Source: Escherichia phage vB_EcoA_4HA11. Taken from it: a DNA stretch of 64,000 nt. Shown here piece by piece: positions 3,023 to 48,938 of this stretch; position 1 is the first letter of the stretch, and each line of letters opens with the position of its first letter. The translations under genes and the position numbers were made by a program. The notes below the pieces were generated by a model that did not search any database, was not told the origin of the DNA, and saw only the letters and a list, made by a program, of their open reading frames with translations. The stretch is from sequence record MN445184. One strand, 5' to 3'.

Positions 3023-4138
3023 TTATGCATCCAATGTGTTCAGGCGTTGTTGGGCAGCATTATAGAATTGTTCTGCTAATTTGCAAACATTTTCAGGGCG
3101 CTGGATATTATTGGCGGCGCGGATATCTTTCTTCAAGACTTCCACCGCATCAGTAGCCACCATCTCTTCAGTGACTTCTACCTTCTCGGAAGCAACAGTA
3201 ATCGTCCGATCGATGAAGTTGTAATCGATGCATTTACAGCGCTTCAATGCGTCACAGAACTTTTCATAATGCTTGGCATTGTCACGGTTCTGTACAATCA
3301 CCTTAACGATTTGCCCTTCAATACCCAAAACATTGTTTAACCAATCGGGGTCGATCCAATTACCTTCAGTATCAGAAGACATTTGGGTGTAGTCGTATTC
3401 CACGAACCGGAACAACGTTTGTTGTTCGTTGTTGGGGATAAACAATTCCCCGCCATTCATGTCGTCTACATAGAATCCTCGGTTCGTCCCGTCTTTGTGG
3501 TCTTCCCAGGTAAGGTGATAAGGAGTCCCAATATACTGAATGTTACCTTCCATCGAACGGGTATGGAAATGTCCGGTATCCACGCGCTCGAATTTCGAAA
3601 GGAGCGCCAAGTCGATCTGACCTTTATCACATACAGAGGACTGGTACATTTTGAACCCTGCCAACTCCAGATGCGCAAAACAGTACTTGGCGTCTGTATC
3701 TTGTATCGCTTTAATGGACGCATCATAGTTCTCTTTGTTAATCCACGGCAGTAGGAGGGTCTTGACACCTTCAATCATTACTTCAGTTGGTTCGCTGTAA
3801 TAATGATAAACATCCGGTGCCAATTCATTAAGATAAGAAGGCCAGTTAATACGATTGGACTCTTCTAACGTGATATCATGGTTGCCGACGATGCCATTCC
3901 ATTTAATACCTGCTTTGCGCAGCGCTGGCGTCAATTCATCTTTCAACCAATCTTTATCGCGACCATACATGAATTTGCGAACATCAAACGTATCACCAAA
4001 TTGCCAAACTTCTTTAATATCGGCGTCAACCAATTCTGGAATAAAATAATTGATGAGATAATTCTTTATGAATTCTCGAACGTAACGGGAACCATTACGG
4101 CTCCCAATATGTAAATCGCCAATTTTAGCAATCGCCAT
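3023..4138 (-). CDS. gp47: SbcD/Mre11-like nuclease subunit (T4 gp47-like)
   Basis: 371 aa; calcineurin-like phosphoesterase motifs (GDLHIG, GNHD, GHFH); paired with SbcC-like gene. Confidence 0.85.
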   Translation of the reverse strand: MAIAKIGDLHIGSRNGSRYVREFIKNYLINYFIPELVDADIKEVWQFGDTFDVRKFMYGRDKDWLKDELTPALRKAGIKWNGIVGNHDITLEESNRINWPSYLNELAPDVYHYYSEPTEVMIEGVKTLLLPWINKENYDASIKAIQDTDAKYCFAHLELAGFKMYQSSVCDKGQIDLALLSKFERVDTGHFHTRSMEGNIQYIGTPYHLTWEDHKDGTNRGFYVDDMNGGELFIPNNEQQTLFRFVEYDYTQMSSDTEGNWIDPDWLNNVLGIEGQIVKVIVQNRDNAKHYEKFCDALKRCKCIDYNFIDRTITVASEKVEVTEEMVATDAVEVLKKDIRAANNIQRPENVCKLAEQFYNAAQQRLNTLDA

Positions 4139-4931
4139 TATTTTGTTGCTCCCGTTCTAATGCTCGTTTCTTTGCTTCTTCCCAATCTGGTTCCATAGAA
4201 CATATTTCGTCTTCCAGATTGAATTGAGTAGAGCCGAAGTCATAGTCTGAATTATCTTCGGCGTCGGCGGTAATGGTATTTTCACTCTTTGTGAGACATT
4301 GAAGTATACCGCGAGGAATTTTCTTATTCTTTTCCTCTTCTTTGATGGCGATTTGCTTTTGGCGTTCCTTTTCGCGCTGGGCTTCTTTCTTAGTTTCAAA
4401 ATTTCCGATACGCTCACGAAAGTCCATTGTTATACCAGTGCTGTCTACGAATGTCTGTTGCTGGAAGTCTGGGTCATCTGATAATGCAGCGAAACCACCT
4501 GCTTCTTCAAATGAACGCAACTTGATATAATTGTGTTCTTCTTCACTGGTGAGTTTCTTGGCGAATGAACGATCGGCGCACATCGTTACCCAAGAGAAGA
4601 AATTGATTTTTCCTTTCTTGCCGATATGACTGACGTCAAATGTATGGAGGTAACGAAGGATGTTGACAACGGCCTCACTGACCATGTCTTCGCGGTATGG
4701 ATAATCACGATAGTTGTAGCGCATACTCATGTTCTTAATAATCATCTGAACATTCATGGCCACATAATTGGGGATTCTTGGTAGGGGTGTTCCTTCGGCC
4801 AAAGCCTTTTTGCGAGCCGGAATCCAATCTCTCAATATTCCAACAACACGGTCATTATCTTCGTCTGTGAAATATTTGGTGACGTTATCACCCCTGTCTA
4901 CAAAATTCATACCCATCGTGATAATCCTCAA
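4125..4931 (-). CDS. gp55: late-transcription sigma factor, gp55-like, with extra charged C-terminal tail
   Basis: Central region (RDW..., MRYNYRDYP..., RYLHTFD, FAKKL) parallels T4 gp55; sits next to 47/46 as in T4. Track start is TTG; in-frame ATGs at 4916 and 4910 with GAGGA upstream are likelier. Confidence 0.55.
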   Translation of the reverse strand: MRIITMGMNFVDRGDNVTKYFTDEDNDRVVGILRDWIPARKKALAEGTPLPRIPNYVAMNVQMIIKNMSMRYNYRDYPYREDMVSEAVVNILRYLHTFDVSHIGKKGKINFFSWVTMCADRSFAKKLTSEEEHNYIKLRSFEEAGGFAALSDDPDFQQQTFVDSTGITMDFRERIGNFETKKEAQREKERQKQIAIKEEEKNKKIPRGILQCLTKSENTITADAEDNSDYDFGSTQFNLEDEICSMEPDWEEAKKRALEREQQNNGDC

Positions 4932-25833: not shown

Positions 25834-26517
25834 TTAATCCAGCTGCATGCCGACGTAATAGTTGATGGTGCCGTCTGCGGATTGGAAGTTAACCAGTTGC
25901 ATTTCGGCACAGGCGCGGATCACGTAGTTGCCTTCGATCATTTTCAGGTTGACCACATCAACAGGCATAGCAAAATCACCCAGAGTTGTTTCACCCAACT
26001 CAACAGTGTAATCGTTGGAATTGTCGATAGTAGTGGTCGTGCCCACCAGACGAGTTTTACCGCCGCTGGCAACCAGACGTACAGTTTTGTGGCCCAGAGT
26101 AGAACAGGCGCGAGTCAGCTCTTTCATTTTTTCAGGAGTGACTGTTGCTTCAAATTCTACAGACGGAAGATCGATGCTGTCTGCCGGAACGACAGTCAGT
26201 TCTTTAGCGGAACGCCAGAATTGCAGTTGGGAGTTTTCACCTTTCAGCAAAATGTGGTCTTCCGACATTTCAATTTTACCGCCTTTAAAACTCGGCAGAC
26301 GCTGGATTGCCAGCAATTTGGTCAGATCCAGAATCGGGAATTCGAACGGGAAGTCTTCGTCAATGTCGGCAATAGCGATAACTGTACTGGAATCGTTAAC
26401 AGTGCGCAACTTTTTACCAGGTGCCAGAACGATAGAGGGGCAGATGGTTTCAAAGTTAGCCAGCAGTTGTAAAGTGCGTTCGGAGAGAGTGATCTCTTGC
26501 ATTAGTTGTATCCTCAA
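25834..26517 (-). CDS. gp45: sliding clamp (gp45-like)
   Basis: Length and N-terminal pattern (ITLSERTLQLLANFETI) parallel T4 gp45; track start is TTG, likelier ATG 26502 with GAGGA SD. Confidence 0.75.
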   Translation of the reverse strand: MRIQLMQEITLSERTLQLLANFETICPSIVLAPGKKLRTVNDSSTVIAIADIDEDFPFEFPILDLTKLLAIQRLPSFKGGKIEMSEDHILLKGENSQLQFWRSAKELTVVPADSIDLPSVEFEATVTPEKMKELTRACSTLGHKTVRLVASGGKTRLVGTTTTIDNSNDYTVELGETTLGDFAMPVDVVNLKMIEGNYVIRACAEMQLVNFQSADGTINYYVGMQLD

Positions 26518-37637: not shown

Positions 37638-37645
37638 TATTTAGT
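37638..37645 (-). promoter_or_regulatory. late-promoter-like motif ACTAAATA
   Basis: About 28 nt upstream of scaffold gene ATG. Confidence 0.35.
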
Positions 37646-37655
37646 GAGCTGAATT

Positions 37656-38324
37656 TCAGCCCAGATGATTCAATGCTGCATCAAGGCGGCGCAGGAAGTC
37701 GTCTTCTACTTGAATATTGGTTTTCACCAACTGGTCTACAACTTTCCCTTTAACATCACGAGGCATCCAAATACCCGAAGCCTCATCAAGCTGCCATTCA
37801 ACAGATTCACTCACAGCCTTAACATAACAAACTTGTCCAGAAGGACGGTCGACTGCATCAACAGCGGTGAGCATAAAGCCAGGTTGAACGTCGTCATAAC
37901 CGTTTACCGACTTGGTCTCACCCAGACCACGTGTAGACACGGCCAGATTGAAGTCTGCTTCAGCCAATGCACGTATGATTTGGCCTTTTGGTGTATTTAA
38001 AATTCGCGCCCGACCGATGGCATTAGTGCCTTCCCAGAGAAGGGATTCGGTTTTGAGCGCTGCTTCCACCAGATTAGGGAAAGGATAGTCAGGATGTGTG
38101 ACTTCACCGATTGCGCGACGATCTTGGATATACTCTTTGTCGTATGCTTCGACAGCAGGAATACCCACTTTCTGCAGATCATAGTTACGCCCGTTACGGT
38201 TGACTTGGTTACACATCACAAACGGACCTTCGATGAACATGGCCTTCCCACCAGTTGAGGTTGTGACCTCACCGATTTGAAGATCCTTCCCTATCGCTGT
38301 GATCTCACGCAACAGTTTCATCAT
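37656..38324 (-). CDS. gp21: prohead core protease (gp21-like)
   Basis: MCNQVNRNGRNY, GEVTHP, STRGLG, VQPGF parallel T4 gp21 motifs. Confidence 0.85.
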   Translation of the reverse strand: MMKLLREITAIGKDLQIGEVTTSTGGKAMFIEGPFVMCNQVNRNGRNYDLQKVGIPAVEAYDKEYIQDRRAIGEVTHPDYPFPNLVEAALKTESLLWEGTNAIGRARILNTPKGQIIRALAEADFNLAVSTRGLGETKSVNGYDDVQPGFMLTAVDAVDRPSGQVCYVKAVSESVEWQLDEASGIWMPRDVKGKVVDQLVKTNIQVEDDFLRRLDAALNHLG

Positions 38325-38331
38325 AAACTCC

Positions 38332-38649
38332 TTACTTGTTCTTACTCAGTCCCATCATTTTGCGGAACTTCATAGCCTTTTTCTTGCGGCGCTCGATTTT
38401 ACGTTGATAGCCCATTCCCATACGCTTTTTAGAGCGGAGGGCTTTGCGGTTGCCGATCTTGCGAACACGACGTTCGCTGGCGTCCATAACTTCACAACGT
38501 GAACCATCAGCCGACAATTTGAACCCAGGGGCACATTTCAAGCGGCGGCGGCGTTTACCACGAGCGTTCACTTTATCGATGACTCGCTGCTCGTCCATAC
38601 GAGAGGCCAGGAAATCAGCGAACGTGGCGATCTCTGTGATTTCCATCAT
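38332..38649 (-). CDS. basic prohead core/internal protein (gp68-like position)
   Basis: Arg/Lys-rich 105-aa protein between portal and protease genes. Confidence 0.45.
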   Translation of the reverse strand: MMEITEIATFADFLASRMDEQRVIDKVNARGKRRRRLKCAPGFKLSADGSRCEVMDASERRVRKIGNRKALRSKKRMGMGYQRKIERRKKKAMKFRKMMGLSKNK

Positions 38650-38657
38650 GCATCTCC

Positions 38658-38828
38658 TTACTGGCCGTTGTTGTTTGAATTCATATCAGCTGCGATAGAA
38701 TCCAGAACATATGCTGTGCCTTGGTTTAATAGTTCTTGACTACGTGCATCAAGTTCCATGTTGCATTCTGCAACAGCAGTTTCAGTGTCACCGTCAATTA
38801 CTGCACGAACGATATCAATTGCGCTCAT
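38658..38828 (-). CDS. small acidic protein (56 aa; gp67-like position), below ORF-track cutoff
   Basis: ATG 38828..38826 MSAIDIVRAVIDGDTE...; stop followed by GGAGATGC and the next ATG. Confidence 0.35.
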   Translation of the reverse strand: MSAIDIVRAVIDGDTETAVAECNMELDARSQELLNQGTAYVLDSIAADMNSNNNGQ

Positions 38829-38855
38829 GATTTTGATCTCCGAATTAATTTTCTA

Positions 38856-38863
38856 TATTTAGT
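38856..38863 (-). promoter_or_regulatory. late-promoter-like motif ACTAAATA
   Basis: About 28 nt upstream of small ORF ATG, just past portal stop. Confidence 0.35.
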
Positions 38864-38869
38864 TGAACT

Positions 38870-40552
38870 TTAAATACTATCGTCTGTTGAACCAGAGAAT
38901 GGGATAGTCTCAGGTTTAAACTTCAACGGACTAACATCTGAACCGCTATAATTGCCAGTTTCATCTGCTTGAACCTTCGGATAGAGACCTTTCTTCTTCT
39001 CTTCCGCGATCTTCGTTTGTTGTTCTTTAACTTCTTCATCAGACATACGCAATACATTTCTCATGACGTAGTCTATGGAGAAAATGGAACCAACAAATGG
39101 CTCAACAGTGTTCAATGAAGCCAGACGATCATTCAAGATAGCGTTTTCTTGTTGTTCACGAATGTAACTATCGGATGTGAATTCAAACTTTATAAACGGT
39201 TTGATCTTCTCATTCCAATCCTTTTCATCCGTAACGCCTTTCAAAATTAACTGGCGGCGCAAGAATTCCATAAAGAAATGGGAGTAACGACGACGTAACC
39301 CAGCACAGAACTTGCTGAAACGCAGCTCTTCCTGTGTAATCTCCGCGAGGTTGGAACCCCCAATGTTAATAGATCCTTCCTCTTGGAGGCGGCTCTTAGG
39401 GATCATTAGAGCATCATAGAGTTTTTCACGGAAATAGTTCACGTGATCCATTTCGCCCAATTGATTCCCACCCCCAACAGTCGCAATCTCTGTAGCATTC
39501 TGACCTTCGCGGCGCGGCAACCAATAATCCTCTGCAATACCCATAAGATGGGCATTACCTGTTATCTTACCAGTGGTGCGGTCATATGCGTTGCGGTTTT
39601 TGAATTTACCCATCATCATGGTCATGTATTCTTCAGCAGATTTCTTACCGAGAGTACCGACGTCAAGATAGAATGCGCGTTTCTCAGGGGCGCGAGTGAT
39701 GGCATAAATTACAGTCGCATCTTCAGTCGTAACCAGGTTGTTCAACGGACGGATAGCAGGATTTAAAAGGCCTGGGACAATACCATTGGCCAATGGCTCT
39801 TCACCACTATCGATGTAAACAATGCTTTCGTCATCGAATACGAGTTCTTGTTGTGAAGGTTGGAAGTTTTGAGAAGTACCTGATTGACCAGTGAATTGGT
39901 TTCGATTATAATTCGGATTGTAATAGTATTTCAGCGTTACAGATTCGATCGCTTCTATACCACCTTCACGCATTGCCTTTTCAACGATGTACACAGGACG
40001 AATACAACGAGAATCCAGCATGACCAATTTCTTGATCCCGCCCTTCTTATTCGTTGGGTCAACAATCACATGATACGCTTGTCGACCATCTACATACCAT
40101 TTCCGAATCTTTTGATACGCCGTATTTTCAAAATCCATCAAATGAATCACTTCTTTGAAACATTCGGTGATAGATTCTTTGACTGATTCAGAAATACCAT
40201 CAACTTTGTCAAGATTGACTGTCACCGGAGTTTCGTCTTCCTCACATGTGACAACGTCATTAACAATGATGTCCACAGCTTTGCGGATTTCTGGCTGCTG
40301 GGCCATGGACTGATATTCTTCCACAACTGTTTTAACGCTGAGAAGTTCACTCTCAACGCCAACATAGTTGTAGGTGTTTGCACCGCCCTGAAGGATTATA
40401 GAACCGTCTTGAGCATCGTCCAGAGCAACAACTGTCGCCTTGGTGAGCAACAATTCATCTTGTTTTTGGGCTAACTTATCGGTGTCGACTTTGGCATTGA
40501 CTAAACCGCCGCCACCAAACAAACCGAAGAACCCCATGCCGTATCCAGCCAT
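38870..40552 (-). CDS. gp20: portal protein (gp20-like)
   Basis: DATVIYAITRAPEKRAFYLDVG...AEDYWLPRREGQNATEI... closely parallels T4 gp20 ([22 protein letters not shown]...TEDYWLQRRDGKAVTEV). Confidence 0.9.
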   Translation of the reverse strand: MAGYGMGFFGLFGGGGLVNAKVDTDKLAQKQDELLLTKATVVALDDAQDGSIILQGGANTYNYVGVESELLSVKTVVEEYQSMAQQPEIRKAVDIIVNDVVTCEEDETPVTVNLDKVDGISESVKESITECFKEVIHLMDFENTAYQKIRKWYVDGRQAYHVIVDPTNKKGGIKKLVMLDSRCIRPVYIVEKAMREGGIEAIESVTLKYYYNPNYNRNQFTGQSGTSQNFQPSQQELVFDDESIVYIDSGEEPLANGIVPGLLNPAIRPLNNLVTTEDATVIYAITRAPEKRAFYLDVGTLGKKSAEEYMTMMMGKFKNRNAYDRTTGKITGNAHLMGIAEDYWLPRREGQNATEIATVGGGNQLGEMDHVNYFREKLYDALMIPKSRLQEEGSINIGGSNLAEITQEELRFSKFCAGLRRRYSHFFMEFLRRQLILKGVTDEKDWNEKIKPFIKFEFTSDSYIREQQENAILNDRLASLNTVEPFVGSIFSIDYVMRNVLRMSDEEVKEQQTKIAEEKKKGLYPKVQADETGNYSGSDVSPLKFKPETIPFSGSTDDSI

Positions 40553-40576
40553 GATCTAAGTCCTCAACGTTTTCTT

Positions 40577-40605
40577 GTAATTAGTGAGGGGGAATAACAT
40601 TCCCC
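40577..40605 (-). promoter_or_regulatory. hairpin GGGGGAAT-GUU-AUUCCCCC followed by ACTAATTA motif variant upstream of portal gene
   Basis: 8-bp stem 40587..40605 plus motif 40577..40584. Confidence 0.35.
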
Positions 40606-40619
40606 CAGCACCGAGGACA

Positions 40620-41153
40620 TTACAATGACTTGTCAGAAACGGCTTGGAAATAACGCAAGTCGACAGTGAACTGTGTGTAAGAGTCCATTGCCGACATATC
40701 GAGTTCCAGTTGGCCGAGGTTTTGAGGCCAGCCGCCCTGTAAAGTCCATGTCTTAGTCACGTTGTCATTCGCGTCCAGAAGTTCCATGATGATATCACGG
40801 AAATAATCATCTGGATTCGCGCTGGCGCGGTTGTTTTCACTACCGTTGATGAATTGCTGCCACACTTCAAAAGCATTGTATGGAGCGTTGTTCACCACGT
40901 TAATGAACGTCACAGGAAGCGCTTCGAAACGACGATCCCCTGGGAACGGAAGTTCACGACCACCCCAGGGCACCAGAATTTCGCCCAGCTGACCTGTTGG
41001 GGTGTTGGTGGTTACAGCCAGCAAGGACACGTCACGAATTGTGTCGGAACCAGCAACAAAAGAAGGAAAGTTTACAGTCACACGCCAGCGGTGTTGGCGT
41101 TGTACGCCGCCCCCTCGTGACATGGCTGCGCGAAACTCATTGACTGTCGCCAT
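40620..41153 (-). CDS. gp19: tail tube protein (gp19-like)
   Basis: 177 aa, between sheath and portal genes as in T4. Confidence 0.65.
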   Translation of the reverse strand: MATVNEFRAAMSRGGGVQRQHRWRVTVNFPSFVAGSDTIRDVSLLAVTTNTPTGQLGEILVPWGGRELPFPGDRRFEALPVTFINVVNNAPYNAFEVWQQFINGSENNRASANPDDYFRDIIMELLDANDNVTKTWTLQGGWPQNLGQLELDMSAMDSYTQFTVDLRYFQAVSDKSL

Positions 41154-41183
41154 TTTTATATCTCCAAATAAGAGTACACAATT

Positions 41184-41642
41184 CTAATTAGTCGTCAATC
41201 TTTTAATCTTCATGGAAGAAAAATCAAATCCGTGGTCAACATTGCTTAAAACGGGTTCGATTTCACACAATTCCCAACGGGGATCTATGAGAGAAACAAG
41301 ACCAATGTGTTCACCTGTGGATGTCAATTTTGCTGCAGTTTTACCCAGCATATGACTTCCATCATTACCGCCTTTATTCATGTTGTAACCCATCTCATAA
41401 GAATTATATTGAGAGATGAGTTGCTTCTCTAATTCCCATTTATGGACTTCATCGGTCTGAGCAATTACAACGAAAGTAAATCCAGATGTTCCATACTTAC
41501 GCATGGCATCATACAATTCACTTTGGACTCCATGATGAAAAGCATTCGCAAAATGCTGATCATATCTTCGTTGTGGGTCATTGGTCACACCGATGTAGAC
41601 CTTTCCATTAGTTATCGTTTCAATTTTGTATGCGTATATCAT
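41184..41642 (-). mobile_element. GIY-YIG homing endonuclease (I-TevI-like catalytic domain)
   Basis: IYAYKIETITNGKVYIGVTNDPQRRYDQH...E...GYNMNKGG parallels I-TevI GIYQIKN..NNKVYVGSA...RWKRH...GYNI; inserted between sheath and tube genes. Confidence 0.75.
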
Positions 41643-41664
41643 TCAATAACTCAAATCAATAAGA

Positions 41665-41692
41665 CAAAGGAAAACCCCGCCGAAGCGGGGTT
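41665..41692 (-). terminator. rho-independent terminator after the tail sheath gene
   Basis: CCCCGC-UUCG-GCGGGG (41675..41690) then UUUUCCUUUGUCUUAUUG. Confidence 0.6.
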
Positions 41693-41698
41693 GGTCAT

Positions 41699-43627
41699 TT
41701 ATGAAGCAGCAACGATGCCGCCACCGGATTCGATTTCGCTGAACTCCATATCTGGTCGAACTGCAGCAAAATCCAAATAAATCCAGTTAATGCTGTACTC
41801 AGGCTTCAACCAAATACCAGCAACCATTTGGTTTGCCGCAATGATATCAGCAGTGTTGTTGTCTTCATCACATTTGACTTTACCATCGTAAATCGCGCCC
41901 ATATTTGCCAGCTGGCGAATATATGGACGAACCGCATTGCTGAACAGACCACGTGTAAACGCGTCATTGTTCTCACCAAGATAGTATTTGGCGATTGCGG
42001 CGATGTTCTGCTCAGCCATGATGAACAGGCCACGAACGTTGATACGGTCAAACGCCGACGGGCGGGTCAGGCCAGTTTTGTCACCATACAGGACGATGCC
42101 TTCATTGGAGAAGGTTACGATGCTGTTGATCTGGTTGCGGTACAACACAGCACGTTCATCAGAAGATGCAGACCACGCCATTCGATTATAGTTGTTGTAT
42201 TTACCACGGTTGTGGAACGCCGGAGATTTGTAGATACCCGCGATTTCAATGCTTCGCGCCCAAACACCTGCGGTGCCACCACAAGCCGGAATCCAACGCA
42301 TTTTGTCGTTGTACTTGTCGTACACATATGCCCAGTTATCATCCATGAAGAAATAAGAAGAGTCGCGAACAAGGCTTTCACGCCAAGCAACGACATCATC
42401 CATTTCACGACCACGGTTGCCAACAACCGTATCACGGAGCGGGGATACGAAAGATACGGTATCTTTTCGCTCAGTAGATAAGTCGATCAATGCTTGTTGC
42501 TCAATCAGTTCTTCACAGTACGCAAATACTGGCTTCGCATCATATGCTTCAGCATTGTTCAAGACTTGGATAGCTGCCACGCGGTTGATGTTATAATCGT
42601 CTACGCCGCCTTCTAATTCAACGACACCTGCAACCAGTTCGCTCGCGAAGGTATACACCCAATTTGAAGTATCGTTGATCACGTCTTTGAAGTACGCATT
42701 CGCGCCATCGGATTTTTTAGAACCCTGGGTGTTCTGCATCAGTTCGTATTTTTCAATGATGGAACCAGAAGCGCCAACAGTAGTGATTACGGCTGTTGCA
42801 GTCAGTCCTTTATCATCAGGAACGATAGCTGTAACGGCCTGAGGACCGATAGCTTTATGGGTCACGATGACAGTGTTGGACTTCACGACAACAGAAGAAT
42901 AAACACTTGTCAGGGAAGTTAGCGCTGTACCGATTTTGGTTGCCAAAGTGGCTGGAGTATCAGTATCCAGATATGCGATATCTTCACCTGCCACACTGAT
43001 GGTGCCAGCAGCAGTAGCCGTACCAGAAACGGAGATACGGTCAACCTGACCGACTGCGCCAGCAGAGTCGGTAATGCGGCCAACTTTGTCTACGACAACT
43101 ACATGGAATTCACCAGACTGAGGTGCGTATGCAAAGTTATTACGGAATTCCCAAGTCGAGAACCCAGCAGCATCACAAACATTGATAGCAATATCATTAC
43201 CCAGGGAACCTGGATAACGACCAGTCCAAGTGATGGACGCCGAAGGACTTGCTGTTTCAAAATCCAGTTTGTTTTTGATCGCAATCGCTGTCTGACCTTT
43301 GGTAACAGAGTTCTTGGCTAGAGGACCAACAACACGGGTCACCCATGCCATAGAGCTGTAAGACAAAAAGTCCGCGATTACGAGAAAATCGGTCGCAGTA
43401 CTGTCGTTGGGTTTGAAGAATTTCTTCACCAAACCTGTCTCACCACCAGTCACCAGCACTGGAAGTTCAACTTCACCCCATTGAAATTTGCCGACGGTCG
43501 CGCCCTGAACAACAACGGACGGAGACGTCTGAAGCGTGGCATCACGCTCAGTCCACTGAACGGACGGCGCAACGCTGAAGCTTTGAGTTGCCATAATATC
43601 ATTCCTTCTCGGTAGAGTTTCGCTCAA
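41699..43627 (-). CDS. gp18: tail sheath protein (gp18-like)
   Basis: About 630-640 aa between terminase and tube genes; track start is TTG, likelier ATG 43594 with AAGGAA SD. Confidence 0.8.
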   Translation of the reverse strand: MSETLPRRNDIMATQSFSVAPSVQWTERDATLQTSPSVVVQGATVGKFQWGEVELPVLVTGGETGLVKKFFKPNDSTATDFLVIADFLSYSSMAWVTRVVGPLAKNSVTKGQTAIAIKNKLDFETASPSASITWTGRYPGSLGNDIAINVCDAAGFSTWEFRNNFAYAPQSGEFHVVVVDKVGRITDSAGAVGQVDRISVSGTATAAGTISVAGEDIAYLDTDTPATLATKIGTALTSLTSVYSSVVVKSNTVIVTHKAIGPQAVTAIVPDDKGLTATAVITTVGASGSIIEKYELMQNTQGSKKSDGANAYFKDVINDTSNWVYTFASELVAGVVELEGGVDDYNINRVAAIQVLNNAEAYDAKPVFAYCEELIEQQALIDLSTERKDTVSFVSPLRDTVVGNRGREMDDVVAWRESLVRDSSYFFMDDNWAYVYDKYNDKMRWIPACGGTAGVWARSIEIAGIYKSPAFHNRGKYNNYNRMAWSASSDERAVLYRNQINSIVTFSNEGIVLYGDKTGLTRPSAFDRINVRGLFIMAEQNIAAIAKYYLGENNDAFTRGLFSNAVRPYIRQLANMGAIYDGKVKCDEDNNTADIIAANQMVAGIWLKPEYSINWIYLDFAAVRPDMEFSEIESGGGIVAAS

Positions 43628-43636
43628 TTTGAAAGA

Positions 43637-43644
43637 TATTTAGT
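43637..43644 (-). promoter_or_regulatory. late-promoter-like motif ACTAAATA
   Basis: About 43 nt upstream of sheath ATG. Confidence 0.35.
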
Positions 43645-43646
43645 GA

Positions 43647-45857
43647 TCAATTCTTAAACCACTCATCCATGGTCATCCCTGACATTTCGTTGAAAACTTG
43701 AATACCCCCGAAACCAGGCAAATGCTCAGTTTCGGATGGGGTGTCTCCAACGACTAAACCGCCAAATGGGAATACCTGCTGAGATTCAGTTGAAGACATT
43801 CGGTTTCTCATGTCCTGAGAAATACTTGTAGATGTCAAATCACTGAACCATTCTTGTTTTACCGCCCATGAATATAAGACCAACGGCATGACACAGTCAT
43901 CGTGACAACCGTCATCGGCTTCATACCGAGCGCCTTTGAACACAAATGTACTGAGTTCATCTATCGTGTCCTGGTCTTCTATCACCAACATTTCTTTCTC
44001 AATGAGCGCTTTCAGGTTAGCACAACCGATAGATCGGACTTTTCTGTTGGTATTGATACCAGGTTCCGGTTTACGCCCACCAATCCGTTTCCCCGTCCCT
44101 TTGTTATCTGTTGATGTGAATATGATTTCTGGATATTCTATCTCTTGATAAAGAATTGTAATAACCTGACCGCCGACGTCGTTGTTTGTTTCAACAAGGA
44201 CAGGACATTCCCCGTATTCGGTGCACATATCAGCTATCGTGTATGCATACATCATAGGAGGTATCGTATTATTCCTGTACTTGGCTGCTATGACATGCGG
44301 ATATTCAGTTATATCCAGAATTGTTAAGACGGAATAATCTCCTTCCACCCCCTTCCCAGTGTCCGCAATCCCAAAGTAGAGACGTTGTGGGTCGTATTCC
44401 TTATAAATCTTGGTGAATTCATTAGGTTCCCGATACAACTTGGACGTCATTTTATCTAAGCATTTGGCCGGAATCAATGAACCCACGGAACCACGGAACT
44501 TAATGCCAAATTCTTGATCGAAACGAGCATCCCCCAGACGGGCACGTTGTTTGGTTTCCCAATCTGGATCTTTGGTATATGCCGGAACCTTATACCATGG
44601 GACTTCAGTTAGGTGGAAGTCGTTGTATTGTGGATGGCGCGGATCTGCTTTGGTGACAATATCATAGAACAACCCTCGCTGGCCTTTCGGAGTACTTGTC
44701 AAAATACAGCGTGATGTATCGGCAGATGCAATGGCTGGGAAAGTTGATTCCCAAAATTCAAAGTCGTTTTCGATAAACGCGACTTCGTCAACGTACAAGA
44801 GCGATACAGAACGACCACGGATGGAGTCCGAAGACGTGGCATAAGCGTATATCTTAGAACCATTTTCAAACTCTATCAGGGTAGAACCAAACTTCTCACA
44901 ACCCTGCTGAAGGAAGAATGGAAGGTCTTGGTATGCCTTTCTGATACGGTCAAGAATTTCTATCGCTTGTTTCTCTTTGTTTGCCAGTACTGCGATTTCC
45001 TTATCAGAATGGAACATCGCATACCAAAGAAGAAACGCCGCCACCACGGTCGTGTTATGACTGAGAAAGCCATTCGTGTAATAACGTTGATCACTAGATT
45101 TGACCTGCAGATCGTACATATGGTGATATTCACCAGTCTGCCAAATCTCACGGATTTCTTCTGGACCTTCTGTCGTCATGATGTATGACCCAGCATTCAG
45201 GTCTTTGGCAAATGTCTCCTTCATGTCCGGAGTGAAGAACATATGTTCATCGGCCACGTTAATTCGCCTTCCGGTAACTGTGACAATAACGAATTCCGCA
45301 TATTTCTTCGTCTTATGCGCTGCGATAACCGGAACCCAGCCACTATCGGATTGTACAAAGTAACGTTTGCCGAAGCGGCTGTCCACGAACTTGTCATGGT
45401 TGCCAATGGTATTCAGCGGCACAGCGTGGTTGACGTCCTCGAATCGGCTGTGAAGCTCCCCTATGGTCAGGAGCAACTCCTCTTGGCTGAGAGTATCGTA
45501 AACTGTGACAAGCGTGTCGCCTTTTACACATTTTCCAGACTGACGAGCCTGGATGACCGCATTGAATCGATAGTCCTGAAAGTCATGGAACAACTGTTTC
45601 TGATAATCATGCATATCGAAAAGGATAAAGCCTTTATCGATCGTGGTTATCTTGTAATAGTTGGCGGCGAAGTAGTGTGCATCCATAGAACATTCAACGA
45701 ATTCGTCTTCTTGTTCATCTGTCAGCATTAACTCGACTCGAGGAGCACGCACAGAAGGTTTGCGCATAAACGTTTGGTCCATACGCAATTTCACATCGTC
45801 TATTTTGAACCCCGTTTTAATTGGGGCATATTCTATATCACGCTTCTGATACGCCAT
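43647..45857 (-). CDS. gp17: terminase large subunit (gp17-like) interrupted by an intein
   Basis: Extein flanks ARQSGK / TTVVAAFLLWYAMF match T4 gp17 P-loop SRQLGKTTVVAIFLAHF; nuclease-domain region downstream. Confidence 0.9.
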   Translation of the reverse strand: MAYQKRDIEYAPIKTGFKIDDVKLRMDQTFMRKPSVRAPRVELMLTDEQEDEFVECSMDAHYFAANYYKITTIDKGFILFDMHDYQKQLFHDFQDYRFNAVIQARQSGKCVKGDTLVTVYDTLSQEELLLTIGELHSRFEDVNHAVPLNTIGNHDKFVDSRFGKRYFVQSDSGWVPVIAAHKTKKYAEFVIVTVTGRRINVADEHMFFTPDMKETFAKDLNAGSYIMTTEGPEEIREIWQTGEYHHMYDLQVKSSDQRYYTNGFLSHNTTVVAAFLLWYAMFHSDKEIAVLANKEKQAIEILDRIRKAYQDLPFFLQQGCEKFGSTLIEFENGSKIYAYATSSDSIRGRSVSLLYVDEVAFIENDFEFWESTFPAIASADTSRCILTSTPKGQRGLFYDIVTKADPRHPQYNDFHLTEVPWYKVPAYTKDPDWETKQRARLGDARFDQEFGIKFRGSVGSLIPAKCLDKMTSKLYREPNEFTKIYKEYDPQRLYFGIADTGKGVEGDYSVLTILDITEYPHVIAAKYRNNTIPPMMYAYTIADMCTEYGECPVLVETNNDVGGQVITILYQEIEYPEIIFTSTDNKGTGKRIGGRKPEPGINTNRKVRSIGCANLKALIEKEMLVIEDQDTIDELSTFVFKGARYEADDGCHDDCVMPLVLYSWAVKQEWFSDLTSTSISQDMRNRMSSTESQQVFPFGGLVVGDTPSETEHLPGFGGIQVFNEMSGMTMDEWFKN
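45054..45530 (-). mobile_element. mini-intein (159 aa) within terminase large subunit
   Basis: Insert begins CVKGDTLVTV, ends GFLSHN, followed by Thr; splits the Walker A motif between GK and T. Confidence 0.75.
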
Positions 45858-46524
45858 CGTCTTCTTCCTTCACATCAACTGTTTCACCATCAATGATTTC
45901 ATCTTCTGGTTGTTGTGCGGCCTTTGCTTGTGCTCTTTCTTCAGCGCGACGGCGGGCATCTTCAATCGTCTTCAATAAATCGCGAGAAGATCGCGCCTTT
46001 TTCCCAACCGATACTGTTGTTGTTCCGTCTGGTGAAGTTGTAACATCCACTGTCGTGTCATCAACAGGTGGTTCTTTATCACCTGTTACTGCCTTGATGG
46101 TTTTCTGGTTTTCCATCAAGTCTTTATTCAGACCGCGCATGAGTTCACCCAATTCACGGAAAACAGAAAATGCTCGCGGAGCTTCTGTGGATGCAGCCAA
46201 TTTAGCGGCTTGTCCCATCATGAACATTGTGGCTTCTTGCATGGCATATGTTGTGTCGCGTATCCGTTTGTAATCCGTTGTAGCATCAGTGTCCGCAAAC
46301 TCAGGTACTTTGGATTCCTTGGAAGCAATATCCTCCAATGAAGGAGGTTCAGGAATCGGCTGATACCCTTCCGGACGTTCACCAAACCATTCACCTGTAT
46401 TTTCATCGAAGTCAATACCTGGACGAGGGGCGACAGCCTCCATCGCCTCCTTCCCAACTTCGTCTCGGGCGGTCACTGCATCAAGTGTGGCGAGTAACCT
46501 TTCTGACATATTGCTCATGATCAA
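45838..46524 (-). CDS. terminase small subunit (gp16-like, by position)
   Basis: Immediately upstream of and overlapping the large subunit; likely ATG 46518 with GGAGG SD. Confidence 0.5.
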   Translation of the reverse strand: MIMSNMSERLLATLDAVTARDEVGKEAMEAVAPRPGIDFDENTGEWFGERPEGYQPIPEPPSLEDIASKESKVPEFADTDATTDYKRIRDTTYAMQEATMFMMGQAAKLAASTEAPRAFSVFRELGELMRGLNKDLMENQKTIKAVTGDKEPPVDDTTVDVTTSPDGTTTVSVGKKARSSRDLLKTIEDARRRAEERAQAKAAQQPEDEIIDGETVDVKEEDDGVSEA

Positions 46525-47219
46525 TCCTCCGGATGATGTATGCCGTCTTTATCAACTCGGAACCACTCAGGAAGTTCCGACCATGGCATGTTCAAATCAT
46601 TAGACATTTCAATAATTATCTCTTTGATGACGTTTGGATCCCCACCGCCCGAACCATCATCAACCCAATAATCTTCTCCATAGATGTGACCATGTAATTG
46701 AAAATTGAATGAACAATCTATGTGTGGTGATTCTGTTGCGTCCCCTTCCCAGTTGTCAGAAATCGTGTGATTTACCAACATTATCTTCACGTTCTGATCT
46801 TGAGATAAAGTATCGTTGTCCTTTATCTGACAGTCAACAGAAGGAGTGAACACAGAATAAATTTGTTCTAATACTTGCAACATTTCGACCAATTTTTTAG
46901 TTCTGATATTGTATTCAAAATCTATAATGATCGGAATGCGTTGTTTGGACCGTGCCGTAGCGGTCGATATTTGGTTGTGGTATGACTTCGTCACCTGTTT
47001 ATTGATTTCGAACTGACCAAAGGACATTGTTGCAAATGGCAGCATATTGGCTGGCACGTTCCTGTTGAGGTCATTACGGCGGCCAATGGCCATATGCAGC
47101 GGAATTTCCATCAAGCCACGTTCGGTTTTGACTTTTAAATCTGACATGATAGCGTTGAACACATGTATGTATTTCAACAATGATTCATGATAGAAATATT
47201 TTTCAAATGGTCTGGCCAT
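46521..47219 (-). CDS. neck/tail-completion protein (gp15-like by synteny)
   Basis: 232-aa ORF upstream of terminase genes. Confidence 0.4.
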   Translation of the reverse strand: MARPFEKYFYHESLLKYIHVFNAIMSDLKVKTERGLMEIPLHMAIGRRNDLNRNVPANMLPFATMSFGQFEINKQVTKSYHNQISTATARSKQRIPIIIDFEYNIRTKKLVEMLQVLEQIYSVFTPSVDCQIKDNDTLSQDQNVKIMLVNHTISDNWEGDATESPHIDCSFNFQLHGHIYGEDYWVDDGSGGGDPNVIKEIIIEMSNDLNMPWSELPEWFRVDKDGIHHPED

Positions 47220-47221
47220 GA

Positions 47222-47863
47222 TTATTCCCCGAAGTCGATCTTCATTTTATTGGGCGAAAGATCTTTCTCTATTTCGTCCGCAAATTGGTTATCCGTTTGC
47301 AGGCTGGCGTCTTTGTACACACCGTCTCCTTCCAGATCCTGCAATCGTTTATCAATATCGTCTATTTCAGATACACCTGTATCGAAATCTTCGTTACCGT
47401 ATTGGAACAACGTACATGGTAGGGAATATGTGTACCATTTCCCAAATTGCATGAATTCTTCATCGTTATTCGGGTTATTCACTTTAAATATTTTGTTAGC
47501 CATAGGCAGATATATCAAATCACCTTCTTGAGGCATTTGTTCAAGGCCTGGACCATTACCAATAACTTCTGAAAAACGACGACGAGCAATAGTGAATGTC
47601 ACTTCATCTTGTAATTGGATACCGCCGAACTTTTCCCACATCTGTGTGTTGAAGCCTTGATAATCCTGCATGTACACTTCGATGTCAAACGCTTGGTCGA
47701 ATTTGTGTTCGGCCTCGTTTAAAATTGGGTATTTTTCAACAATAGAACGTGGAATATACTTGACATCAATCCCACGCAATTGTATCATCTCGACCACCAA
47801 GTCATCAATTAATTTTTGAGTCCCTTGGTGTGCAGTGTAATTGAAGTATCGAGAAGTAGCCAT
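47222..47863 (-). CDS. neck protein (gp14-like by synteny)
   Basis: 213-aa ORF; ACTAAATA motif 25 nt upstream. Confidence 0.4.
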   Translation of the reverse strand: MATSRYFNYTAHQGTQKLIDDLVVEMIQLRGIDVKYIPRSIVEKYPILNEAEHKFDQAFDIEVYMQDYQGFNTQMWEKFGGIQLQDEVTFTIARRRFSEVIGNGPGLEQMPQEGDLIYLPMANKIFKVNNPNNDEEFMQFGKWYTYSLPCTLFQYGNEDFDTGVSEIDDIDKRLQDLEGDGVYKDASLQTDNQFADEIEKDLSPNKMKIDFGE

Positions 47864-47887
47864 AATATTTTCCTCAAGATTTAAATA

Positions 47888-47895
47888 TATTTAGT
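47888..47895 (-). promoter_or_regulatory. late-promoter-like motif ACTAAATA
   Basis: 25 nt upstream of ATG 47863. Confidence 0.35.
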
Positions 47896-47921
47896 TGAAT
47901 TTGTTTTTAAGGTGAATCAAT

Positions 47922-48632: not shown

Positions 48633-48659
48633 CCATGACTTTACCCTCAATTTTGAAGG

Positions 48660-48667
48660 TATTTAGT
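48660..48667 (-). promoter_or_regulatory. extra copy of ACTAAATA motif on the 3' side of the plus-strand insertion
   Basis: Same 8-mer; no minus-strand start codon within 50 nt. Confidence 0.2.
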
Positions 48668-48697
48668 CAATCATTAATTCTTTTGAGGAATTGATAA

Positions 48698-48910
48698 ATG
48701 AAGGTTGAAGATATTAAAGAAACTCGTGACGGAAGGCGTGTGAGAATTATCTGTGTAGATGCTAAAATCGCCGATGGTTCATATAACATTGTGGGTCTTA
48801 TCAAAGGCGAAAAGGGAAATGATTTTATTGAATGGTGGGACGAAAAGAACGTGGTTGATGGTTATATTCTAGCAAATTCAGATCCTTCCGGACGCGACAT
48901 CAAGTTATAA
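48698..48910 (+). CDS. small hypothetical protein co-oriented with the endonuclease-like gene
   Basis: 70-aa ORF with GAGGAA SD. Confidence 0.4.
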   Translation: MKVEDIKETRDGRRVRIICVDAKIADGSYNIVGLIKGEKGNDFIEWWDEKNVVDGYILANSDPSGRDIKL

Positions 48911-48937: not shown

Positions 48938-48938
48938 C

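What the first reader, a model, noticed from the sequence alone, without database searches (positions are those of the whole stretch)
4125..4931. gp55-like late sigma factor with an ~80-aa highly charged C-terminal extension
The N-terminal 180 aa parallel T4 gp55. The C-terminus (FETKKEAQREKERQKQIAIKEEEKNKK...EDEICSMEPDWEEAKKRALEREQQ) has no counterpart in T4 gp55 and is Lys/Glu-rich and then acidic. It might substitute for gp33-type co-activator functions or contact the clamp.
Basis: partly seen in the sequence, partly recalled or inferred. Interest (0 to 1): 0.4.

Follow-up and report, generated by a model that had tools for sequence, protein, structure and literature searches.

The report
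Long-tailed gp55 late sigma factor
This is the already annotated late-gene sigma factor (T4 gp55 type) of a Kuttervirus phage; about half of its "extra" C-terminus matches the linker and sliding-clamp-binding motif that other gp55 proteins have, and the rest is a lineage-specific acidic tail of untested function.

Summary
The ORF is real, and its true start is the ATG at 4916 (CDS 4125-4916, minus strand, 263 aa). The DNA is 100% identical to the annotated late sigma factor of Escherichia phage PhaxI and many other Kutterviruses.

Residues 20-176 align with T4 gp55 residues 12-158, and the predicted fold's best PDB match is T4 gp55.

- **aa 177-199:** a charged predicted helix, present in all 48 relatives aligned.
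- **aa 200-209:** a conserved hydrophobic motif (KIPRGILQCL) at the profile positions of the T4 clamp-binding motif. The shortest relatives end just after it.
- **aa 210-263:** an acidic tail (aa 213-263 net charge -11), mostly predicted disordered. It carries one conserved motif (DFGxTQFxLE[DE]), a hypervariable end, and a 14-nt overlap with the gp47 start.

The tail is translated in the gp55 frame and is under purifying selection. It is not a separate gene.

A gp33 homologue exists in these genomes, so the tail does not replace gp33. That gp33 does lack a T4-type clamp motif.

Long acidic tails after the motif recur in other gp55 lineages. This is a variant of a known system, of modest interest, and the tail's function is only inferred.

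The parts
4125..4916 (-). gp55-type late sigma factor CDS, 263 aa plus stop; the true start is the ATG at 4916
   Evidence: ORF. 100% DNA identity to the annotated PhaxI F371_gp111 and other Kutterviruses. PHROG_234 E 1.6e-53.
4925..4929 (-). Shine-Dalgarno sequence GAGGA, 8 nt upstream of the gp55 ATG; overlaps the RNase H stop codon (4928-4930)
   Evidence: Read directly from the sequence.
4389..4916 (-). aa 1-176: sigma region-2-like core plus helix-loop-helix, homologous to T4 gp55 aa 12-158
   Evidence: hhalign. AF2 pLDDT about 80-94 over most of aa 11-180 (70-78 for aa 91-110). Foldseek top hit 7d7c_F, E 5.3e-4, TM-score normalised to the target 0.69.
4320..4388 (-). aa 177-199: charged Lys/Arg/Glu segment, predicted as a continuation of the last core helix (helix 166-199); takes the place of the linker in T4
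   Evidence: AF2 helix 166-199, pLDDT 84-88 falling to 74. Present in all 48 relatives, with K176, R181, R185, K187 and K199 nearly invariant.
4290..4319 (-). aa 200-209, IPRGILQCLT: conserved hydrophobic motif 1 (clade consensus K-I-x-K-G-I-L-Q-Y-L/M); probable internal sliding-clamp-binding motif
   Evidence: Aligned with T4 SLDFLY by MAFFT and by the PHROG_234 profile. Present in 48 of 48 relatives, and the shortest relatives end 3-5 aa after it. The family-wide pattern is a basic linker, then G-hydrophobic-x-x-F-hydrophobic, then an acidic tail.
4194..4289 (-). aa 210-241: proximal acidic tail; aa 212-233 and 240-242 predicted disordered, short low-confidence helix at 234-239; under purifying selection
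   Evidence: pLDDT below 50 for aa 212-242. pN 0.13-0.17 against pS 0.46-0.71 in the gp55 frame, while pN exceeds pS in the other two frames. Occupied in 77-91% of relatives.
4206..4241 (-). aa 226-237, DFGSTQFNLEDE: conserved motif 2 (D-F-G-x-T-Q-F-x-L-E-D/E); partner unknown
   Evidence: Conservation. It is near the C-terminus in the Limestonevirus-type proteins. It is the top-scoring of 67,638 positions in the PhaxI proteome for a matrix built from T-even gp33 N-termini. That gp33 motif is confounded by an overlap with dsbA.
4143..4205 (-). aa 238-258: distal tail; hypervariable, indel-rich and mosaic between relatives
   Evidence: Occupancy 47%, mean top-residue fraction 0.19. A Kuttervirus relative that is 91% identical overall falls to 19 of 60 identical bases here and carries a Taipeivirus-like version.
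4125..4142 (-). aa 259-263 (NNGDC) plus the stop codon; the last 14 nt (4125-4138) overlap the gp47 start codon and first codons
   Evidence: Sequence. The same junction DNA is read in a different frame in Limestonevirus, where gp55 stops at TAATG. The conservation here is explained by the gp47 start.
4149..4153 (-). GGGAG Shine-Dalgarno sequence of gp47, embedded in the gp55 tail codons
   Evidence: Sequence.
3023..4138 (-). gp47 (Mre11/SbcD-like recombination nuclease), the downstream gene; its start overlaps or abuts the gp55 stop in every relative examined except the most distant one (L052, 61-nt gap)
   Evidence: The junction offsets are -14, -10 or -1 nt in the relatives whose gp47 start was called at an ATG, whatever the tail length.
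25834..26502 (-). gp45-type sliding clamp gene, the presumed binding partner of motif 1
   Evidence: tblastn against the window. phmmer to RB69 and T4 clamps 1b77 and 1czd, E about 1e-12, over the full length. PHROG_223 E 1.5e-65.
37638..62618 (-). Region holding eight ACTAAATA sites, all on the minus strand (starting at 37638, 38856, 43637, 47888, 48660, 55175, 60401 and 62611); for seven of the eight the script found an ATG opening an ORF of at least 50 aa 20-34 nt downstream; candidate late promoters read by this sigma factor
   Evidence: 8 found against 1.83 expected, with 0 of 100 shuffles reaching 8. Positions relative to start codons. TATAAATA is not enriched.

Best explanation
The gene encodes the Kuttervirus (Ackermannviridae) orthologue of the T4 late sigma factor gp55.

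Residues 1-176 form the sigma-region-2-like core plus helix-loop-helix. By homology with T4, this part binds the RNA polymerase beta-prime clamp helices and reads the late -10-like element, which here appears to be ACTAAATA.

The last core helix is predicted to continue as a charged helix of about 25 residues (aa 177-199). It takes the place of the 17-21-residue flexible linker in T4.

It leads to a conserved hydrophobic motif (aa 200-209, KIPRGILQCL). This is the positional equivalent of the clamp-binding motif in T4 gp55, and it most likely tethers the late holoenzyme to the phage's gp45-type sliding clamp. Here the motif is internal rather than C-terminal.

The remaining 54 residues or so are a lineage-specific, largely disordered acidic tail. 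The proximal half, including the motif DFGxTQFxLE[DE], is under purifying selection. I infer that it makes a second, auxiliary contact within the clamp / gp33 / polymerase complex. The distal half is poorly constrained and simply runs into the gp47 start.

Shown here: homology, architecture, conservation, reading frame, and the presence of gp33 and gp45 homologues. Inferred: clamp binding by motif 1 and any function of the tail.
For: - **Identity and annotation:**
- **Family membership:** PHROG_234 for both this protein and T4 gp55; hhalign 20-176 to 12-158; Foldseek top hit 7d7c_F.
- **Charged helix:** AF2 predicts helix 166-199 with pLDDT 84-88 up to about residue 190.
- **Motif 1:** universal in the 48 relatives, and terminal in the shortest ones. 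The PHROG profile and MAFFT place it on the T4 SLDFLY motif.
- **Family-wide pattern:** the same order of basic linker, hydrophobic motif and acidic tail is seen across the family, which has 1068 representative clusters. The tail after the motif has a median of 7 aa, reaches up to 53 aa, and is 17-26 aa and acidic in several unrelated lineages.
- **Internal motifs can work:** the internal clamp motif of T4 ligase binds gp45 with a Kd of about 10 uM (PMC6212786). gp55-gp33 fusions with an internal gp55 motif are active (PMC2988020).
- **The tail is coding and constrained:** pN 0.16-0.18 against pS 0.43-0.60 for aa 213-263 in the gp55 frame, and pN exceeds pS in the other frames.
- **Partners are present:** the gp45 homologue is in the window, and the gp33 homologue is in the same genus.
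- **Candidate promoters:** enriched ACTAAATA upstream of structural genes.
Against: - No binding data exist for any Ackermannviridae gp55.
- Motif 1 resembles the cognate polymerase C-terminus (KRRVNLLSMMGKKG) only weakly. It ranks 564 of 67,130 positions against the polymerase-type C-terminal motifs, and its BLOSUM score against the polymerase 7-mer is 4. In T4 the gp43, gp55 and gp33 motifs are nearly identical.
- AF2 confidence at motif 1 is only about 61, and below 50 for most of the tail.
- Pfam and NCBIfam have no model for the family, and phmmer alone does not connect this protein to T4 gp55.
- The function of the tail is pure inference.
Confidence: 0.7

Rival explanations
1. The tail takes over gp33-type peripheral functions. 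In Ackermannviridae, gp33 would be reduced to its beta-flap-binding core, and gp55 would carry both tethering motifs: motif 1, plus motif 2 on the acidic tail. gp55 alone would then give bivalent attachment to the clamp.
For: - Kuttervirus gp33 is 80 aa and ends in KSKKLI, with no LDFLL-type motif. It ranks about 28,577 of 67,130 against the cognate polymerase-type motif.
- Its N-terminus lacks the T-even MT[QL]FSL[NSK]D motif.
- gp55 motif 2 (TQFNLEDE) is the best match in the whole PhaxI proteome to a matrix built from T-even gp33 N-termini, scoring 23.25 against 19.5 for the next hit.
- The 7-of-8 identity TQFSLNDI / TQFSLEDI is reached by 10 of 500 shuffles.
- The one lineage examined whose gp33 has a longer C-terminus (Erwinia phiEa2809...KKLDMFHGVL) has a gp55 without motif 2.
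Against: - The T-even gp33 N-terminal motif lies exactly in the 23-nt overlap with the 3' end of dsbA. The DsbA C-terminus (ELYD-x-x-F) is at least as conserved as the gp33 motif, so that conservation may owe nothing to gp33 function.
- The similarity was noticed after the fact.
- Vibrio phage D504 has a short gp33 end (TRKLF) and also no motif 2 on gp55, so the anticorrelation holds in only 5 of 6 lineages.
- Motif 2 does not resemble the polymerase-type clamp motif.
Confidence: 0.17
2. The acidic tail is an intramolecular regulator, in the manner of sigma region 1.1 or a DNA mimic. It would fold back on the basic linker helix or occupy DNA-binding surfaces, limiting non-specific DNA binding or basal transcription until the clamp engages.
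For: - Adjacent segments have opposite charge: aa 166-201 net +4, aa 213-263 net -11.
- Acidic tails after the motif recur in many gp55 lineages.
- In T4, repression of basal transcription is a distinct function supplied by gp33 (PMC2988020).
Against: - AF2 gives no confident docking of the tail on the rest of the protein; pLDDT is below 50.
- A pure charge-mimic role does not explain the conserved aromatic and hydrophobic positions of motif 2.
- There is no experimental precedent in gp55.
Confidence: 0.1
3. The tail is essentially a by-product. The stop codon drifted into the region between gp55 and gp47, and the extension persists because that DNA must carry the gp47 ribosome-binding site and start codon.
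For: - The distal tail is hypervariable, indel-rich and mosaic.
- The terminal NNGDC is explained by the gp47 start, and the same junction is read in another frame in Limestonevirus.
- Relatives with 212-235 aa evidently function without it.
Against: - Residues 213-241 are about as constrained at the protein level as the core: pN 0.13-0.17 against 0.11, with pS much higher, and only in the gp55 frame.
- Motif 2 is conserved across genera that are 54-80% identical.
Confidence: 0.1
4. The extension is a separate gene product, a mis-fused ORF, or an overlapping gene in another frame.
For: An 86-aa ORF in another frame of the same strand (4157-4417) is listed mechanically.
Against: - There is one uninterrupted frame with no internal stop.
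- In nearly all relatives the gp55 stop overlaps or abuts the gp47 start.
- The substitution pattern supports only the gp55 frame.
- The tail is annotated as part of gp55 in RefSeq.
Confidence: 0.01

Closest known systems
Bacteriophage T4 gp55 (late sigma factor; PDB 7D7C and 7D7D)
   Same: Same PHROG family. The region-2-like core and helix-loop-helix align, window 20-176 to T4 12-158, and T4 gp55 is the best structural match. As in T4, a linker follows the core and leads to a short hydrophobic motif. gp33 and gp45 partners are encoded. The gene neighbourhood is T4-like, with gp47 and gp46 immediately downstream.
   Different: - 263 aa against 185 aa.
- The linker is longer and predicted helical and charged, rather than a 17-21-residue flexible segment.
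- The hydrophobic motif is internal, basic-flanked (KIPRGILQCLTK rather than SLDFLYEAND), and not a near copy of the polymerase motif.
- About 54 extra acidic residues follow it.
- The candidate promoter core is ACTAAATA rather than TATAAATA.
Other gp55-family proteins with extended acidic tails (for example the cluster representatives P0185, P0099, P0092, P0131 and P0210, and IMG/VR locus L066)
   Same: Same order of parts: basic linker, then G-hydrophobic-x-x-F-hydrophobic motif, then an acidic tail of 17-53 aa. Several also have a second hydrophobic-plus-acidic patch near the end.
   Different: The tails are not alignable with the Kuttervirus tail. In the best 150 of the 1068 representative matches, the best-scoring stretch does not extend past query residue 224. 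They look like independent elaborations.
T4 DNA ligase internal gp45-binding loop (EPEGLDFLFD; PDB 6DRT)
   Same: A precedent for a clamp-binding motif that sits inside a disordered segment rather than at a terminus (PMC6212786).
   Different: A different protein and a different motif sequence. It is cited only to show that an internal position is compatible with clamp binding.
T4 gp33 (late-transcription coactivator; Pfam PF16805)
   Same: Kutterviruses encode a homologue (68.5 bits). The T-even gp33 N-terminus (MTQFSLND) resembles gp55 tail motif 2.
   Different: The gp55 tail has no homology to the gp33 flap-binding domain. The Kuttervirus gp33 lacks both the N-terminal motif and the LDFLL end.

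Membership tests
T4 gp55-type late sigma factor | Sequence and profile homology to gp55 (sigma region-2-like domain with conserved segments 1-3) | tested here: met
   PHROG_234 E 1.6e-53 over aa 12-207, and T4 gp55 hits the same PHROG at 2.9e-69. hhalign probability 85.7%, E 5.4e-6, window 20-176 to T4 12-158. There is no Pfam or NCBIfam model for the family.
T4 gp55-type late sigma factor | Fold: four-helix region-2-like domain plus a long helix-loop-helix, with no sigma region 3 or 4 | tested here: met
   AF2 helices 18-41, 50-66, 75-88, 106-138, 153-160 and 166-199. Foldseek top hit 7d7c_F, E 5.3e-4, TM-score normalised to the target 0.69, followed by sigma-E region 2. No other domain was detected.
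T4 gp55-type late sigma factor | Short hydrophobic sliding-clamp-binding motif attached to the core by a linker | tested here: inconclusive
   A conserved motif at aa 200-209 lies at the profile positions of the T4 motif and is universal in the clade. It is internal, and only weakly similar to the cognate polymerase C-terminus. Binding was not tested.
T4 gp55-type late sigma factor | Co-occurrence with a gp45-type sliding clamp and a gp33-type coactivator | tested here: met
   The clamp gene is in the window at 25834-26502. The gp33 homologue is not in the window, but it is present in PhaxI and 350 other records of related phages.
T4 gp55-type late sigma factor | A simple -10-like late promoter (TATAAATA in T4) upstream of late genes | tested here: met
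   A variant was found. ACTAAATA occurs 8 times against 1.83 expected, always on the coding strand, and for seven of the eight sites 20-34 nt upstream of an ATG that opens an ORF of at least 50 aa. TATAAATA is not enriched. A related (A/G)CTAAATA consensus is reported for Aeromonas phage Aeh1 (PMC2988020). Actual use as a promoter was not tested.
T4 gp55-type late sigma factor | Binds RNA polymerase core and directs late transcription | not testable with these tools
   This needs in vitro transcription or pull-downs.
Polymerase-type C-terminal clamp-binding motif of Ackermannviridae ([VI]-N-L-L-x-hydrophobic-M-x-K at the C-terminus) | Close match to the polymerase C-terminal 7-mer VNLLSMM, located within a few residues of the C-terminus | tested here: not met
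   gp55 motif 1 scores 4 against the polymerase 7-mer and lies 54-55 residues from the C-terminus. Motif 2 and the gp33 C-terminus score lower still. Three other ORFs do meet the criterion.
ER/K single alpha-helix (SAH) domain | Dense i/i+4 pairs of opposite charge along a long isolated helix | tested here: not met
   Only 2 i/i+4 pairs (and 8 i/i+3 pairs) in the 36 residues 166-201. I therefore describe it as a charged predicted helix and do not call it an SAH domain.

The most novel reading that the evidence does not exclude
In Ackermannviridae, the short linear motifs that tether the split late sigma factor (gp55 plus gp33) to the sliding clamp may have been redistributed. gp33 would be pared down to its flap-binding core, with no N-terminal TQFSL-type motif and no LDFLL end. 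gp55 would carry an internal clamp motif plus a motif on its acidic tail that resembles the gp33 N-terminus (TQF[S/N]LE[D/E]). The sigma subunit alone would then provide the bivalent attachment that T4 achieves with two proteins.
Probability: 0.15. Interest if true: 0.55.

Novelty: new variant of a known kind. Interest (0 to 1): 0.3.

Why it matters
Activation of late transcription by a sliding clamp is a textbook oddity that has been worked out almost entirely in T4. Ackermannviridae phages are widely used in biocontrol and phage therapy. Their late transcription is not covered in the papers I could search; a 2024 family review does not contain the words transcription, sigma or promoter.

The anatomy found here has four notable features:
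- an internal clamp-type motif on gp55;
- a conserved acidic tail;
- a gp33 with no recognisable clamp motif;
- an ACTAAATA promoter core.

Together they suggest that the division of labour between gp55 and gp33 differs from T4. That gives concrete peptides and truncations to test. If the tail proves dispensable, this is just an ordinary orthologue with a floppy end.

Tried and rejected
- **Database models:** Pfam and NCBIfam have no gp55 model. phmmer against PDB sequences misses T4 gp55. The 51-aa tail alone hits no PHROG.
- **Motif 1 as a copy of the polymerase clamp motif:** the similarity is weak. The first regular expression I used was designed after seeing the hits, so I replaced it with a test seeded from the polymerase 7-mer alone.
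- **TQFNL in the Kuttervirus ligase (aa 52-56):** by my own reading of the two N-terminal sequences (no alignment was run), it falls near the DNA-contacting loop between helices alpha-3 and alpha-4 in T4 ligase, not at the gp45-binding loop. I treat it as chance.
- **Host beta-clamp motif (QL[SD]LF) as a reading of motif 2:** considered and rejected. The first position varies (Q, K or E) and the last is acidic.
- **ER/K single alpha-helix:** not supported.
- **Covariation of gp55 tail type with gp33 end type:** only six lineages could be paired. The IMG/VR scan with the gp33 alignment returned only close relatives.
- **T-even gp33 N-terminal motif as an independent conserved motif:** undermined by its exact coincidence with the dsbA overlap.
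- **Complex prediction:** structure prediction of a gp55-clamp complex was not possible with the tools. One Python run failed on a file path and two timed out; all three were rerun.
Full report
**What is there**

The listed TTG start at 4931 overlaps the stop codon of the upstream RNase H gene (4928-4930). A GAGGA Shine-Dalgarno sequence (4925-4929) lies 8 nt upstream of an ATG at 4916. The protein is therefore 263 aa (CDS 4125-4916), the length annotated in RefSeq.

The DNA is 100% identical to 'late sigma transcription factor' F371_gp111 of Escherichia phage PhaxI and to many Salmonella and E. coli Kutterviruses. In all, 173 phage records match at the DNA level, each covering at least 80% of the gene. 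The window is a Kuttervirus (Ackermannviridae) segment. The gene order is RNase H, gp55, gp47, gp46, and a gp45-type clamp gene lies at 25834-26502.

**Is it gp55?**

Pairwise similarity to T4 gp55 is weak. BLASTP gives 18% identity and E 0.005, and phmmer against PDB sequences misses it. I confirmed the T4 sequence I used against PDB 7d7c_F. Profile and structure methods are clear:
- PHROG_234 'late sigma transcription factor' matches aa 12-207 at E 1.6e-53, and T4 gp55 belongs to the same PHROG.
- hhalign of a 48-member alignment against T4 gp55 aligns window 20-176 with T4 12-158.
- An AlphaFold2 model (mean pLDDT 74.7, most of the core near 80-94) has T4 gp55 (7d7c_F) as its only Foldseek hit in the PDB below E 0.001, followed by sigma-E region 2.

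**Anatomy of the 'extension'**

After the aligned core, T4 has 27 more residues: a variable linker and the clamp-binding motif (SCBM) SLDFLYEAND (PMC2988020; PMC7892883). The window protein has 87. An alignment of 48 relatives of 212-264 aa resolves this into four parts.

1. **aa 177-199, KEAQREKERQKQIAIKEEEKNKK.** This segment is present in all 48 relatives, with nearly invariant basic positions (K176, R181, R185, K187, K199). AF2 predicts it as a continuation of the last core helix (helix 166-199, pLDDT 84-88 falling to 74). It is charged but does not meet the ER/K single-helix criterion.

2. **aa 200-209, IPRGILQCLT (clade consensus K-I-x-K-G-I-L-Q-Y-L/M).** This motif is also present in all 48 relatives, and the shortest relatives end 3-5 residues after it. 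MAFFT places the T4 SLDFLY on it. The PHROG profile carries the window protein to profile position 177 of 181, where the T4 motif lies.

3. **aa 210-241.** This segment is acidic and mostly predicted disordered (pLDDT below 50). It contains a conserved D-F-G-x-T-Q-F-x-L-E-[DE] motif (aa 226-237). Occupancy is 77-91% of relatives. In Limestonevirus-type proteins the polypeptide ends a few acidic residues after this motif.

4. **aa 242-263.** This part is hypervariable, with indels. A Kuttervirus relative that is 91% identical overall falls to 19 of 60 identical bases here and carries the Taipeivirus version. The final NNGDC and stop codon overlap the gp47 ATG by 14 nt, and the gp47 Shine-Dalgarno sequence lies in the preceding codons. 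In Limestonevirus the same junction DNA is read in another frame and stops at TAATG, so the conserved end is explained by gp47, not by gp55.

**Wider family context**

An exhaustive profile-free search found 1068 representative clusters of the family. The best 150 are 160-286 aa long, with a median of 202. Their best-scoring stretches typically run to query residues 185-205 and never past 224.

Across these proteins and IMG/VR loci, the common C-terminal order is a basic linker, then a G-hydrophobic-x-x-F-hydrophobic motif, then an acidic tail. The tail has a median of 7 aa among the 60 proteins where a simple pattern could locate the motif. Several unrelated lineages have acidic tails of 17-26 aa after the motif, the longest tails reaching 53 aa, and some of these have a second hydrophobic-plus-acidic patch near the end.

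The Kuttervirus protein is therefore at the long end of a recurring theme. It is not a unique architecture.

**Is the tail translated, and is it selected?**

In nearly all relatives the gp55 stop overlaps or abuts the gp47 start (-14, -10 or -1 nt where gp47 was called at an ATG), whatever the tail length; the most distant relative (L052) has a 61-nt gap. There is thus no room for a separate gene.

I made Nei-Gojobori comparisons with three 263-aa relatives of about 78% identity. For aa 213-263 in the gp55 frame, pN is 0.16-0.18 against pS 0.43-0.60. Residues 213-241 (pN 0.13-0.17) are about as constrained as the core (0.11). In the other two frames pN exceeds pS. This excludes the overlapping 86-aa ORF at 4157-4417.

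**gp33 and the clamp**

Kutterviruses do encode gp33. In PhaxI it is 43305-43547, 80 aa, matching Pfam PF16805 at 68.5 bits (cut-off 25) and PHROG_254. Matches occur in 351 phage records. The gene lies outside this window.

This gp33 is minimal. It ends in ...LLKGELKSKKLI, where T4 has ...EKTNTLDFLL.

The cognate clamp motif can be inferred from the DNA polymerase C-terminus, KRRVNLL[SA]MMGKKG, which is conserved across the family. Seeding with that 7-mer finds three further PhaxI ORFs ending in VNLLSLMSK, VNLMSLLKR and INLLEKMKK. That is 3 hits at the threshold against 0.13 expected.

Against this motif, the gp33 end scores at background, and gp55 motif 1 only modestly (rank 564 of 67,130). 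Assigning motif 1 as the clamp-binding element therefore rests on positional homology within the gp55 family and on its conservation, not on resemblance to the polymerase. The T4 review notes that near-identity of the gp43, gp55 and gp33 ends is not general in T4-related phages.

Internal clamp motifs are known to work. The internal loop of T4 ligase binds gp45 with a Kd of about 10 uM (PMC6212786), and gp55-gp33 fusions with an internal gp55 motif are active.

**A lead on motif 2**

T-even gp33 proteins share an extreme N-terminal motif, M-T-[QL]-F-S-L-[NSK]-D. The Kuttervirus gp33 lacks it. It resembles gp55 tail motif 2, which is TQFNLEDE here and TQFSLEDI in relatives.
- A matrix built from eight T-even N-termini ranks gp55 aa 230-237 first among 67,638 positions in all PhaxI ORFs of at least 50 aa.
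- The raw 7-of-8 identity is reached by 10 of 500 shuffles.

This motif lies exactly in the 23-nt overlap between T4 dsbA and gene 33. The DsbA C-terminus encoded there (ELYD-x-x-F) is at least as conserved as the gp33 motif across relatives. The gp33 motif may therefore be conserved for reasons unrelated to gp33. I had also noticed the similarity before testing it. I keep this as the most novel reading that the evidence does not exclude, at about 15%, and do not treat it as a finding.

Pairing gp55 tails with gp33 ends was possible in six lineages:
- Kuttervirus, Taipeivirus, Agtrevirus/Limestonevirus and Miltonvirus have a short gp33 end together with motif 2.
- Erwinia phiEa2809 has a longer gp33 end and no motif 2.
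- Vibrio phage D504 has a short gp33 end and no motif 2.

This is suggestive but far too small a sample.

**Mechanism proposed**

*Shown here:*
- orthology to gp55;
- the four-part C-terminal architecture;
- conservation and the reading frame;
- the presence of gp33 and gp45 homologues;
- eight ACTAAATA sites on the coding strand, seven of them 20-34 nt upstream of an ATG that opens an ORF of at least 50 aa (8 against 1.83 expected; TATAAATA is not enriched).

*Inferred:*
- The core binds the beta-prime clamp helices and reads the ACTAAATA element.
- The charged helix spans the gap to the clamp on upstream DNA. In T4 this gap is 45-71 Angstrom.
- Motif 1 binds the clamp.
- The proximal acidic tail with motif 2 makes an auxiliary contact, and the distal tail is largely unconstrained.

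*Rivals for the tail:*
- a partial take-over of gp33's peripheral motifs;
- an autoinhibitory DNA-mimic role;
- a near-neutral by-product of the gp47 junction.

A separate gene product is excluded.

**Verdict**

This is a known, annotated gene of a known family, with a lineage-specific elaboration of its C-terminus. None of the papers I could search describes that elaboration, and a 2024 Ackermannviridae review does not contain the words transcription, sigma or promoter.

Interest is modest. It would rise if the tail were shown to supply the second clamp contact that gp33 supplies in T4.

Noticed in passing
window 37638, 38856, 43637, 47888, 48660, 55175, 60401 and 62611 (all minus strand): ACTAAATA occurs 8 times against 1.83 expected. 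For seven of the eight sites an ATG opening an ORF of at least 50 aa lies 20-34 nt downstream, in the region annotated as structural genes in PhaxI. The T4 consensus TATAAATA is not enriched (3 against 2.1). This looks like a variant late-promoter core, similar to the (A/G)CTAAATA reported for Aeromonas phage Aeh1.
   Followed up: partly
window 21690-21719 (-), the end of the ORF matching PhaxI F371_gp086; also PhaxI 29183-29395 (-), 150486-151721 (+), 148824-149729 (+) and 144338-147334 (+): Several otherwise unrelated proteins end with the same motif as the DNA polymerase: VNLLSMMGKKG, VNLLSLMSK, VNLMSLLKR, VSLLGLLSKG and INLLEKMKK. At a score of 20 or more there are 3 hits against 0.13 expected. 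These are candidate clients of the phage sliding clamp, and most are annotated as hypothetical.
   Followed up: partly
window 4143-4205 (-), compared with L035, L046 and L039: The distal gp55 tail is mosaic. Some Kutterviruses that are 91% identical overall carry the shorter tail version seen in Taipeivirus (Klebsiella phages), including a 21-nt deletion. This points to recombination or rapid turnover between motif 2 and the gp47 ribosome-binding site.
   Followed up: partly
window 4125-4142 (-), compared with L044: The same junction sequence, GAATAATGGCGATTGCTAA, is read in two frames by gp55 in different genera. In Kuttervirus it gives NNGDC and a stop, with a 14-nt overlap with gp47. In Limestonevirus it gives ...KE and a stop, with a TAATG overlap.
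   Followed up: yes
PhaxI 43305-43785 (L003), outside the window: The Kuttervirus gp33 gene overlaps the 3' end of an upstream FmdB-family zinc-ribbon 'regulatory protein' gene by 8 nt. This recalls the conserved dsbA-gene 33 overlap and translational coupling in T4, although DsbA and FmdB-type proteins are not obviously related.
   Followed up: no
T4 NC_000866 149509-149531 (L131) and loci L132-L166: The conserved N-terminus of T-even gp33 (MT[QL]FSL[NSK]D) is encoded entirely within the 23-nt overlap with dsbA, whose C-terminus there (ELYD-x-x-F-x-K) is equally conserved. Which frame drives the conservation is unresolved.
   Followed up: partly
L107 (Erwinia phage phiEa2809), L108 (Vibrio phage D504), L130 (Serratia phage KNP4): gp33 C-termini differ between Ackermannviridae lineages: KSKKL[IVF] in most, RSKKLDMFHGVL in the Erwinia phages, and TRKLF in the Vibrio phage. 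None of them resembles the polymerase C-terminal motif.
   Followed up: partly
PhaxI 44061-44672 (-), RuvC-like resolvase, outside the window: This protein contains RGIMDML 38 residues from its C-terminus. That is the closest internal look-alike of gp55 motif 1 (RGILQCL) in the proteome. Its significance is unknown.
   Followed up: no
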